Source: a virus
Taxonomy: Duplodnaviria; Caudoviricetes
Direction: 5' to 3' (one strand)
DNA: 64,000 nt
IMG/VR virus record: IMGVR_UViG_2061766007_000586
Span: 96,001 to 160,000 of that record
A model generated the notes under the pieces. That model searched no databases. It was not told the origin of the DNA and saw only the letters and a list, made by a program, of their open reading frames with translations. Position numbers and translations under genes: made by a program. Below, in pieces: positions 30,766 through 31,687 of the stretch; within the stretch, counting starts at the first letter, position 1, and the number at the start of each line of letters is the position of its first letter.

Positions 30766-30792
30766 AACACAAGGCTCTTAGAGCCTTGTGTT
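30766..30792 (-). terminator. Intrinsic terminator
   Basis: Stem aacacaaggctc/gagccttgtgtt plus U-tract. Confidence 0.9.
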
Positions 30793-30820: not shown

Positions 30821-31147
30821 TCAATGCTTAAGATAGGTAATAAATGTAATATAAAGAATGATAAGAAGTCCCCAATGAAGAAGAATATATTTTTTTACTT
30901 TCTCTACATCTAGTCTTCCTTTCGAACAATCCTTCGTCACATTGATTCTTGCGGCTTCCATTTTTTCATCCCACGTTTTGCATTTCTTAACTTTAGCTTT
31001 GAACTCTTCAATTTCCTCTTCGTCTTTATCTTGTTCAGCTCTATTAAAAAGAACAACAGCATACCCGAACAGAGTATACAAAATGAAATCAATCACAATG
31101 CCTCTGATAGTTTTTCCGATTTTCTGTGAAAACGATTTAGTTTCCAT
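30821..31147 (-). CDS. Small membrane protein with two hydrophobic helices (108 aa)
   Basis: RBS aaggag; segments GIVIDFILYTLFGYAVVLF and YILLHWGLLIILYITFITYL; early promoter upstream. Confidence 0.75.
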   Translation of the reverse strand: METKSFSQKIGKTIRGIVIDFILYTLFGYAVVLFNRAEQDKDEEEIEEFKAKVKKCKTWDEKMEAARINVTKDCSKGRLDVEKVKKYILLHWGLLIILYITFITYLKH

Positions 31148-31181
31148 ATTAATCTCCTTTATTAATTATGGATTATTTATT

Positions 31182-31193
31182 TAGTAATATATA
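31182..31193 (-). promoter_or_regulatory. Early-type promoter TATATATTACTA
   Basis: Exact 12-mer also found upstream of gyrB (44893) and the DNA polymerase (53947); contains the phiKZ early consensus TATATTAC. Confidence 0.75.
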
Positions 31194-31212
31194 CCTAAAC
31201 AAAGAAAGAAAA

Positions 31213-31293
31213 TGGTGGAGCTAGTGGGGATCGAACCCACGTCTTGCGGCGGCACTTTGGCTTTAACCGCAATCGACACCATGTCATAGCCCC
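31213..31293 (-). ncRNA. tmRNA-like tRNA-like domain (81 nt, Ala identity, encoded CCA) lacking the mRNA-like domain
   Basis: GGGGCUA/UAGCUCC-ACCA acceptor with G3:U70 and A73; D-loop UGACAUGGUGUCGA; helix UUGCGG/CCGCAA; GAC linker; T-arm GUGGG-UUCGAUC-CCCAC. Confidence 0.85.
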
Positions 31294-31302
31294 ATTTGAA
31301 AG

Positions 31303-31606
31303 ATAAACTCCTTTCTCAGGTGGAACACTATCCAGATCTTTGTGTTCCGGGTTAACCCAGTCATTACTGACTGTCTCCTTTTTCACGCCTGTGACCGAAC
31401 AATAGCATCGCTGTCTTCGGTCTACTGCTCATCACAGTATCAGGAGCGAGGGACGTATATCGTGATCAGGGTCTTGTCGCGATCAAGAACCCCACCGGAG
31501 CTACACGTTAATATGCTTGGTAGAAGCACCGTGTCTCTTCCCCTCCACACTGGACCACCTGCTTTTCCATACAGATGGCGGAGATTGGTTAAAGATTAGA
31601 GTTTAT
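31303..31606 (-). ncRNA. Unknown structured RNA of about 304 nt, directly upstream of the tmRNA-like element
   Basis: GC-elevated with no credible ORF; ends pair (AUAAACUC/GAGUUUAU); many nested hairpins; early-type promoter just upstream. Confidence 0.65.
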
Positions 31607-31617
31607 TTTTATCATTA

Positions 31618-31629
31618 TAGTCATATATA
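31618..31629 (-). promoter_or_regulatory. Early-type promoter TATATATGACTA driving the RNA cassette
   Basis: One mismatch to the TATATATTACTA 12-mer; 12 nt upstream of the RNA closing stem. Confidence 0.6.
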
Positions 31630-31659: not shown

Positions 31660-31687
31660 GATCCTGGAGCATTTATGCTCCAGGATC
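31660..31687 (-). terminator. Intrinsic terminator
   Basis: Stem gatcctggagcat/atgctccaggatc plus U-tract. Confidence 0.9.

What the first reader, a model, noticed from the sequence alone, without database searches (positions are those of the whole stretch)
31213..31293. Tag-less mini-tmRNA: a phage gene containing only the tRNA-like domain
Seen: the minus strand reads GGGGCUA UGACAUGGUGUCGA UUGCGG (17 nt) CCGCAA GAC GUGGG UUCGAUC CCCAC UAGCUCC ACCA. It has the alanine determinants (G3:U70, A73, encoded CCA), a tmRNA-type D-loop ending GG...UCGA and the GAC linker before the T-arm. Helix 2 closes after about 17 nt, so there are no pseudoknots, no tag ORF and no 7-nt anticodon loop. Established: these are tmRNA hallmarks and the SmpB contact region; tmRNAs without the mRNA-like domain occur in jakobid mitochondria, whereas typical bacterial and phage tmRNAs carry a tag. 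Inference: it may be alanylated and either titrate SmpB or rescue stalled ribosomes without tagging proteins for degradation, which would counter trans-translation or tRNA/mRNA-cleaving defences.
Basis: partly seen in the sequence, partly recalled or inferred. Interest (0 to 1): 0.88.

Follow-up and report, generated by a model that had tools for sequence, protein, structure and literature searches.

The report
Phage tag-less mini-tmRNA gene
A 319-kb rumen jumbo phage carries a real, conserved 81-base gene for only the alanine-accepting, tRNA-like end of the bacterial ribosome-rescue RNA (tmRNA); this type is already known from mycobacteriophage DS6A and is common in phage sequences, so it is a new member of a known kind.

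Summary
Window 31213-31293 (minus strand) matches the Rfam tmRNA model end to end (45.8 bits, E 4e-17), with all 308 positions of the tag and pseudoknot part deleted. ARAGORN misses it.

It is not an assembly collapse. The same 81-nt form sits at the same genomic position in diverged relatives from independent assemblies, with compensatory changes in the acceptor stem, T stem and helix 2. G3:U70, A73 and CCA are kept.

The kind is already known: the 'TLD only' tmRNA of mycobacteriophage DS6A (Mao 2009; Hudson 2014). I located it and found the same architecture. At least 120 IMG/VR contigs carry such genes. This scan had already reported the type on other DNA (65 notes, at least 58 genomes).

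The phage lacks SmpB, AlaRS, Pth and ArfB, so the RNA must use host factors. The most likely mechanism, which is inferred, is that the RNA is charged with alanine, captures host SmpB and competes with host tmRNA, so stalled ribosomes are engaged without a degradation tag.

New here is the context. The gene is the 3' end of a phiKZ-type early transcription unit, behind an unclassified structured RNA of about 300 nt. Whole contigs from rumen RNA libraries cover that upstream RNA.

Novelty: new member of a known kind. Interest is moderate to low.

The parts
31213..31293 (-). Mini-tmRNA gene (81 nt including the encoded CCA): tRNA-like domain only
   Evidence: RF00023 end to end, 45.8 bits, E 4.4e-17. 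Conserved at the same genomic position in L009-L012, L014, L020 and L023.
31287..31293 (-). Acceptor stem, 5' strand GGGGCUA (G3 of the G3:U70 pair)
   Evidence: Read directly. The relative L012 has GGGCCUG/CAGGUCC, so pairs 4 and 7 change on both sides while G3:U70 is kept.
31273..31286 (-). tmRNA-type D-loop UGACAUGGUGUCGA. It is 2 nt longer than the consensus, and GACA/UGUC can pair.
   Evidence: cmscan alignment. Relatives have GAC/GUC or GAAA/UUUC at the same place, a weak hint of a short D stem.
31244..31272 (-). Helix 2 (UUGCGG/CCGCAA) with a 17-nt cap containing UUAAAGCCAAAGUGC, in place of an anticodon arm
   Evidence: The helix covaries in the family. The cap motif recurs in unrelated phage contigs.
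31224..31243 (-). GAC linker and T arm (GUGGG UUCGAUC CCCAC)
   Evidence: The T stem is 100% paired with 4 pair types at positions 1-2 across 109 sequences.
31213..31223 (-). Acceptor stem 3' strand UAGCUCC (U70), discriminator A73, encoded CCA
31294..31612 (-). Unclassified structured leader RNA of about 300 nt, with no terminator between it and the mini-tmRNA; probably co-transcribed
   Evidence: No conserved ORF. The MFE z-score is -4.33. No Rfam family matches. Whole contigs from three rumen RNA libraries lie on 31316-31601. Three different versions exist in relatives.
31620..31629 (-). Promoter-like motif TATATATGAC (phiKZ early type) ahead of the leader and mini-tmRNA
   Evidence: The motif TATATAT[TG][AT]C occurs 29 times on the minus strand and once on the plus strand of the genome, ahead of genes and tRNAs. 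It matches the phiKZ/201phi2-1 promoter TATATTAC (PMC7058600 Table 2).
31660..31687 (-). Hairpin terminator of the upstream 513-aa gene, which sets the 5' limit of the RNA unit
   Evidence: It is conserved with compensatory changes in L012.
31195..31212 (-). U-rich tail after CCA (UUUUCUUUCUUUGUUU), followed at 31184-31193 by the next promoter motif
   Evidence: The tail is U-rich in most relatives. The simple scan did not call a terminator here.

Best explanation
SHOWN: this is a genuine, conserved phage gene for a 'TLD-only' (tag-less) tmRNA. It comprises an acceptor stem with the alanine identity set (G3:U70, A73, CCA), a tmRNA-type D-loop and T arm, and helix 2 closed by a short cap. It has no resume codon, tag frame or pseudoknots. 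It lies at the 3' end of a non-coding unit that starts at a phiKZ-type early promoter motif and includes a structured leader of about 300 nt. INFERRED: (1) RNase P cuts the RNA from the precursor at G1. (2) Host AlaRS charges it with alanine. (3) It binds host SmpB and EF-Tu, because the phage encodes none of these factors. (4) As an abundant competitor of host tmRNA, it enters ribosomes stalled on broken or non-stop mRNAs and accepts the nascent chain, but it offers no tag template. Trans-translation tagging, and the SmpB pool that supports it, are thereby diverted during infection. The ribosome is then freed by the host's back-up release routes or by a further round. The net effect is interference with tmRNA tagging, and possibly extra rescue capacity when host or defence nucleases cut mRNAs.
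For: Identity rests on the following. RF00023 matches end to end at E 4e-17, and the relative L009 passes the gathering score at 49.6 bits. The 81-nt form sits at the same genomic position in relatives whose neighbouring protein is 76-91% identical, from ENA, JGI and Logan assemblies. Across 109 sequences the T stem is 100% paired and helix 2 pairs 1-5 are 92-99% paired, with 4-6 pair types each, against 32-39% when the partner is shifted. On alignment A6, 99.8% of cells are paired versus 64% in shuffles, and the covariation score is 0.919 versus 0.194. Evidence that charging is under selection: in loci found without any constraint on the acceptor (neighbour-protein and cap-motif searches), every sequence keeps G1-C72, G2-C71, the G3:U70 wobble and A73, while pairs 4-7 vary. 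Dependence on the host: the 319-kb genome has no SmpB, AlaRS, Pth or RF-1/ArfB domain. [quoted passage not shown] Transcription unit: a strand-biased promoter motif (29:1) lies at 31620-31629, and no terminator lies between it and the gene.
Against: There is no direct evidence that the 81-nt species exists, is charged or binds SmpB. The RNA-library contigs cover the leader, not the mini-tmRNA, and contigs cannot show RNA ends. The window's score is 1.2 bits below Rfam's gathering score. As summarised in PMC4131195, inhibition by a TLD-like RNA did not depend on chargeability, so charging and ribosome entry may not be needed. The D-loop is 2 nt longer than the consensus and may form a short stem, with unknown effect on SmpB binding. 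The host is unknown. After peptidyl transfer, a TLD without a resume codon leaves the ribosome stalled again, so any benefit to the phage is not obvious.
Confidence: 0.55

Rival explanations
1. Pure SmpB sponge. The RNA acts only by sequestering host SmpB (and perhaps AlaRS or EF-Tu) off the ribosome. This shuts down trans-translation without the RNA ever accepting a peptide.
For: [quoted passage not shown] The SmpB-contacting D-loop and T-loop elbow motifs are the most conserved parts. The phage has no SmpB of its own.
Against: G3:U70, A73 and a CCA end (or a CCA-addable end) are kept wherever they were not imposed by the search, while neighbouring acceptor pairs change. That argues for selection on charging, which a passive sponge would not need.
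Confidence: 0.25
2. Cis-acting processing handle. In this lineage the tRNA-like element mainly recruits RNase P to make the exact 3' end of the upstream ~300-nt RNA (as the mascRNA element does for MALAT1). The upstream RNA would then be the functional product.
For: Whole contigs from three RNA libraries cover the leader only. In L009-L011 a second tRNA-shaped RNA follows, which looks like a processed multi-RNA operon.
Against: The leader is replaced by unalignable versions in close relatives, while the mini-tmRNA is kept. The same RNA type occurs in at least 120 unrelated viral contigs without this leader. RNase P recognition would not require G3:U70 or the tmRNA-specific D-loop.
Confidence: 0.08
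3. Decoy or substrate for another tRNA-binding factor, for example a host defence nuclease or toxin, or a modification enzyme, that recognises the acceptor/T-arm minihelix. SmpB would not be involved.
For: The genome holds 20 tRNAs and several odd tRNA-shaped RNAs (earlier unchecked notes). This suggests strong pressure on the tRNA pool.
Against: The element scores as tmRNA rather than tRNA within the clan. It keeps tmRNA-specific D-loop and linker motifs that it shares with DS6A. No anticodon arm is present for anticodon nucleases to cut.
Confidence: 0.07
4. No function: a decaying remnant of a captured tmRNA, an attachment-site fragment, or an assembly artefact.
For: The score is just under Rfam's gathering score.
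Against: Both gene ends are intact in one 81-nt unit. The gene is conserved with compensatory changes in several independent assemblies. The genome has no integrase, and att remnants carry only the 3' part of tmRNA.
Confidence: 0.03

Closest known systems
'TLD only' / CDS-less tmRNA of mycobacteriophage DS6A (tmRNA Website tmID 11587; Mao et al. 2009 RNA Biol 6:355, cited in PMC4131195; 'Phage__Mycobacterium.9' in PMC11915505)
   Same: The architecture and size are the same (83 nt versus 81 nt). Both have a 7-bp acceptor stem with G3:U70, a GG..UCGA D-loop, a 6-bp helix 2 closed by a short cap with an A-rich bulge, a 3-nt linker and a T arm. The Rfam scores are nearly equal (43.2 versus 45.8 bits). 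I located it at JN698994 28478-28560 and aligned it. Both are phage-encoded, and this phage has no SmpB gene (DS6A was not searched).
   Different: DS6A is a 60.6-kb integrase-encoding phage whose listed host is Mycobacterium tuberculosis. This is a 319-kb, 36% G+C rumen jumbo phage without an integrase. Sequence similarity outside the universal tmRNA motifs is low. The DS6A 3' end reads ACUA, not ACCA. Here the gene is fused behind a ~300-nt structured leader under a phiKZ-type promoter motif.
Bacterial tmRNA (ssrA, Rfam RF00023)
   Same: The tRNA-like domain is shared: alanine identity elements, D-loop, T arm, the base of helix 2, and presumably dependence on SmpB, AlaRS and EF-Tu.
   Different: It lacks the resume codon, tag reading frame, stop codon and all pseudoknots (308 of 374 model positions). 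It therefore cannot tag proteins or supply a stop codon.
CDS-less organellar tmRNAs (jakobid and oomycete mitochondria; ~65-bp forms in Mallomonadaceae plastids, PMC11915505)
   Same: These are tRNA-like-domain-only RNAs that are thought to work with SmpB.
   Different: They are organellar, vertically inherited and partnered with a nucleus-encoded SmpB. Within the Rfam clan the bacterial tmRNA model, not the mitochondrial one, fits this RNA best.
Synthetic TLD constructs used in trans-translation biochemistry (Shimizu and Ueda 2006, as cited in PMC3895274)
   Same: They are minimal tmRNAs that accept the peptide on stalled ribosomes together with SmpB and EF-Tu.
   Different: They are laboratory constructs, whereas this one is natural and under selection.
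tRNA-Ala
   Same: The acceptor stem identity is shared (G3:U70, A73, CCA). The phage also has a normal tRNA-Ala(UGC) elsewhere in the genome.
   Different: There is no anticodon stem-loop and no standard D arm. ARAGORN makes no call. The acceptor and T-arm sequences differ from the phage's own tRNA-Ala.

Membership tests
tmRNA (RF00023), full-length | Acceptor stem with G3:U70, A73 and a CCA end | tested here: met
   Read from the sequence; cmscan alignment
tmRNA (RF00023), full-length | tmRNA-type D-loop (GG...UCGA, no standard D arm) and T arm GGUUCGAnnCC | tested here: met
   cmscan alignment with high posterior probability over these positions
tmRNA (RF00023), full-length | Resume codon, tag reading frame and stop codon | tested here: not met
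   Only 17 nt lie between the strands of helix 2; 308 model positions are deleted
tmRNA (RF00023), full-length | Pseudoknots PK1-PK4 | tested here: not met
tmRNA (RF00023), full-length | Score at or above Rfam's gathering score (47 bits) | tested here: not met
   45.8 bits in the window. The syntenic homologue in L009 reaches 49.6 bits.
TLD-only (CDS-less) phage tmRNA, DS6A type | A complete tRNA-like domain whose helix 2 is closed after a few base pairs, total length about 60-90 nt, phage-encoded | tested here: met
   81 nt. Same layout as the DS6A RNA that I located and aligned. 108 further unique examples of 62-89 nt in IMG/VR.
TLD-only (CDS-less) phage tmRNA, DS6A type | Helices supported by covariation (a real RNA gene) | tested here: met
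   syntenic relatives
TLD-only (CDS-less) phage tmRNA, DS6A type | Inhibits host tmRNA and binds SmpB | not testable with these tools
   Reported for a DS6A-like molecule in E. coli (PMC4131195). No RNA-protein prediction or assay was available here.
TLD-only (CDS-less) phage tmRNA, DS6A type | Expressed as a discrete small RNA | tested here: inconclusive
   Contigs from RNA libraries cover the adjoining leader but not the 81-nt gene itself. Only a contig from an 85%-identical relative touches it.
tRNA (RF00005) | Anticodon stem with a 7-nt loop; standard D arm | tested here: not met
   ARAGORN makes no call. tmRNA outscores the other families of the tRNA clan.
Permuted (two-piece) tmRNA | Acceptor piece followed by a coding piece with a tag frame | tested here: not met
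   Only an 18-bit, E 0.13 match that runs into the ribosome-binding site of the next ORF

The most novel reading that the evidence does not exclude
In this phage lineage the mini-tmRNA may not act alone. It is the 3' module of an early multi-RNA operon whose 5' part is an abundant, unclassified ~300-nt structured RNA. The two could form a new ribosome- or SmpB-directed system. Alternatively, the charged mini-tmRNA may add one or more template-free C-terminal alanines to stalled chains, a phage counterpart of alanine tailing.
Probability: 0.12. Interest if true: 0.8.

Novelty: new member of a known kind. Interest (0 to 1): 0.35.

Why it matters
Trans-translation is a near-universal ribosome-rescue and protein-quality pathway in bacteria. 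A small phage RNA that diverts it would be a compact host-takeover or counter-defence tool. This case adds a jumbo-phage example with a likely early promoter and a defined precursor. It also adds evidence that the alanine identity is under selection, which favours ribosome entry over passive SmpB titration. It shows again that standard annotation (ARAGORN, Rfam gathering scores) misses this widespread class. The concept itself was published for phage DS6A, and this scan has found it repeatedly, so the finding is not a surprise to specialists.

Tried and rejected
1. blastn of the locus and of the 81-nt gene against 50,697 GenBank phage records gave no match.
2. Single-protein pattern searches for the two neighbouring genes in IMG/VR found no relatives. 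Relatives came from the protein database instead.
3. tblastx of four unrelated mini-tmRNA loci against the genome found no shared genes, so the RNA is not tied to one phage lineage.
4. One IMG/VR pattern scan was wasted on a spacing error.
5. The idea that the conserved cap loop pairs with the leader RNA failed: duplex energies are no better than for shuffled leaders in any of the four leaders tested, which cover all three versions.
6. The leader is not a known RNA family. There are no meaningful Rfam hits for the three leader versions.
7. The leader's 3' block is not found elsewhere in IMG/VR.
8. The leader is not protein-coding, nor an obvious antisense copy of a gene. Only unconvincing stop-to-stop frames exist, and indels between relatives break them. 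This was not pursued with homology searches.
9. Host inference from the 3' end gave only two bacterial tmRNAs with the same T stem and acceptor strand (a Bacteroidales MAG and a Gracilibacteria MAG). That is too weak to name a host.
10. Reads: the RNA-library contigs give no cover of the 81-nt gene itself, apart from a contig of an 85%-identical relative. Parts without cover are no evidence either way.
12. Mao et al. 2009 is not held in the library. Its result is cited through PMC4131195.
13. No phage RtcB was found.

Full report
**What is there.** The window is bases 96001-160000 of a 318,604-bp viral record that CheckV rates as complete. It has 36% G+C and comes from bovine and sheep gut (rumen) samples.

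- a 7-bp acceptor stem GGGGCUA/UAGCUCC with the G3:U70 wobble;
- a 14-nt D-loop containing GG and UCGA;
- a 6-bp helix (UUGCGG/CCGCAA) closed by 17 nt;
- a GAC linker;
- the T arm GUGGG-UUCGAUC-CCCAC;
- A73 and an encoded CCA.

ARAGORN reports nothing in the window, and no Rfam family reaches its gathering score. A permissive cmscan places the tmRNA model RF00023 on exactly 31213-31293, from model position 1 to 374. The 308 positions of the mRNA-like and pseudoknot part are deleted, the score is 45.8 bits (gathering score 47) and E is 4.4e-17. Lower-scoring matches to related families of the tRNA clan were superseded. The MFE fold gives the same shape.

**It is a real, conserved gene and not a collapse.** Homologues of the upstream 513-aa neighbour (76-91% identical) led to contigs from independent ENA, JGI and Logan assemblies. 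A cap-motif scan of metagenomes added two more contigs.
- In L009-L011, L012, L014, L020 and L023 an 81-nt mini-tmRNA lies at the same position, between the 513-aa gene and the ~610-aa gene. The L009 copy passes Rfam's gathering score at 49.6 bits.
- These copies differ by compensatory changes. The acceptor stem is GGGGCUA/UAGCUCC or GGGCCUG/CAGGUCC. The T stem is GUGGG/CCCAC or CCGGG/CCCGG. Helix 2 is UUGCGG/CCGCAA, UUGGGA/UCUCAA or UUGGA/UCCAA. G3:U70, A73 and CCA stay unchanged.
- No relative has a full-length tmRNA here, and the genome has no other tmRNA. The remaining weak hits are ordinary tRNAs.

**It belongs to a large family.**
- A strict pattern found four further mini-tmRNAs in IMG/VR contigs that share no genes with this phage.
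- Together with the other loci, this gave 108 unique sequences of 62-89 nt. Of these, 38 encode CCA. Twenty lie within 300 nt of a tRNA, and ARAGORN calls a tmRNA in only three of the loci.
- Parsing from fixed anchors, independent of any aligner, shows acceptor pairs 5-7 at 94-98% canonical, T-stem pairs at 100% and helix 2 pairs 1-5 at 92-99%. Each has four to six pair types. With the partner shifted by one or two bases, pairing falls to 39% or 32%.
- On a 58-sequence alignment, 99.8% of cells pair, against 64% in shuffles. The covariation score is 0.919, against 0.194 in shuffles and at most 0.152 in slid controls.
- These patterns imposed GGGG...CUCCA, so they say nothing about G3:U70. In the loci found through the neighbouring protein or through the cap motif, where the acceptor was unconstrained, every sequence still has G1-C72, G2-C71, G3:U70 and A73.

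**It is already known as a kind.**
- Hudson, Lau and Williams list 'Mycobacterium phage DS6A (TLD only)'. [quoted passage not shown]
- The 2025 tmRNA database paper repeats this and adds CDS-less plastid forms (PMC11915505).
- I located the unannotated DS6A gene at JN698994 28478-28560 (43.2 bits). Its architecture matches the window's RNA.
- Earlier agents of this scan reported the same type on other DNA: 65 notes in at least 58 genomes. I treat those notes as leads only. The family-level facts above were re-derived here.

**Context and transcription unit.** The gene lies among genes with virion-structural family matches: a head-tail joining domain and PHROG 3013.
- The 513-aa gene ends in a strong hairpin at 31660-31687.
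- The motif TATATATGAC follows at 31629-31620. The degenerate motif TATAT AT[TG][AT]C occurs 29 times on the minus strand and once on the plus strand of the genome, in front of genes and tRNAs. It matches the promoter TATATTAC reported for phiKZ and 201phi2-1 (PMC7058600 Table 2). Calling it an early, virion-polymerase promoter is an analogy and was not tested.
- Between this motif and G1 lie about 320 nt without a conserved reading frame. This stretch is 44% G+C in a 36% G+C genome. It folds far better than shuffles (z -4.33) and matches no Rfam family.
- No terminator lies before the mini-tmRNA. A U-rich tract follows CCA, and the next promoter motif starts 20 nt after it.
- So the mini-tmRNA is most likely cut from a leader-TLD precursor by RNase P (inference; U is at position -1).
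- In three rumen RNA libraries from three studies, whole contigs of 204-286 nt lie within 31316-31601 at 99% identity and have no loose ends. The 81-nt gene itself is not covered. By the tool's own rules this is a weak hint that the leader is a discrete RNA. It says nothing about the mini-tmRNA.
- The leader is replaced by two other, unalignable versions in close relatives (L012/L020 and L023), while the mini-tmRNA is retained.
- The conserved cap loop is not complementary to any leader version beyond chance.

**Mechanism.**
- The genome encodes 20 tRNAs, including a normal tRNA-Ala. It has no SmpB, AlaRS, peptidyl-tRNA hydrolase, RF-1/ArfB domain, integrase or RtcB. The RNA must therefore work with host factors, and it is not an attachment-site remnant.
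- Established knowledge: AlaRS recognises G3:U70 and A73. SmpB binds the D-loop/T-loop elbow of the tRNA-like domain and stands in for the missing anticodon arm. TLD-only constructs accept the peptide on stalled ribosomes in vitro (Shimizu and Ueda 2006, as cited in PMC3895274).
- The G3:U70 wobble is kept while neighbouring pairs covary, which indicates selection for charging. I therefore favour a charged competitor that takes SmpB and EF-Tu onto stalled ribosomes without delivering a tag (about 0.55) over a passive SmpB sponge (about 0.25).
- Lesser rivals are a cis-acting RNase P handle for the leader (0.08), a decoy for another tRNA-binding factor (0.07), and a relic or artefact (0.03).
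- All functional steps are inferred. None could be tested with the tools at hand.

**Verdict.** The function is plausible but untested. The kind is already published and common, so the novelty is 'new member of a known kind' and the interest is moderate to low. The most interesting residue is the context: an early multi-RNA operon with an abundant, unclassified leader RNA. The first stage has already listed that leader as a separate finding.

Noticed in passing
window 31294-31612 (-): An unclassified structured RNA of about 300 nt lies directly upstream of the mini-tmRNA. It is GC-rich for this genome, folds with z -4.33 and has no Rfam match. Whole contigs from three rumen RNA libraries cover it. 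Close relatives carry two other, unalignable versions (L012/L020 and L023) at the same place. The first stage already noted it as a separate finding.
   Followed up: partly
whole genome (G000); in the window at 31620-31629 and 31184-31193 (-): The promoter-like motif TATATAT[TG][AT]C occurs 29 times on the minus strand and once on the plus strand, upstream of genes and tRNA genes. It matches the published phiKZ/201phi2-1 promoter TATATTAC.
   Followed up: partly
L009:6050-6156 (+) (also L010, L011): In the closest relatives, a ~107-nt tRNA-shaped RNA follows the mini-tmRNA by 11 nt. It has an acceptor stem and T arm, a long insert where the anticodon arm should be, and no encoded CCA. The window has a 108-aa ORF at that place instead.
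   Followed up: partly
window 30821-31147 (-): A 108-aa ORF with two hydrophobic segments, so possibly a small membrane protein. It has its own promoter motif and terminator (30766-30792) and no family match. It is absent from relatives L009-L012.
   Followed up: no
L015-L024, L044, L050, L121 and others: The cap of helix 2 (UUAAAGCCAAAGUGC and close variants) is conserved in sequence across mini-tmRNAs of unrelated phages, while the helix below it covaries freely. This suggests a specific contact site.
   Followed up: partly
L033:2976-3318, L085:10221-10616, L111:5905-6228: In three of the 108 mini-tmRNA loci, ARAGORN calls a longer tmRNA that ends at the same 3' end as the mini pattern. These may be full-length phage tmRNAs or false calls.
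   Followed up: no
L145:4-397 (-): A Bacteroidales MAG (UBA4333) has a full-length tmRNA with the same acceptor stem and T stem as the phage RNA. One Gracilibacteria MAG shares the same 3' end. This is only a faint host hint.
   Followed up: partly
window 31177-31212: In two RNA libraries, high-depth contigs match only these 36 bases (the U-rich tail plus the promoter motif) and continue into unlike sequence on both sides. They are probably other loci or phages that share the promoter region.
   Followed up: no
window 3812-26803 (-): Two giant ORFs of 4165 and 3464 aa lie back to back.
   Followed up: no
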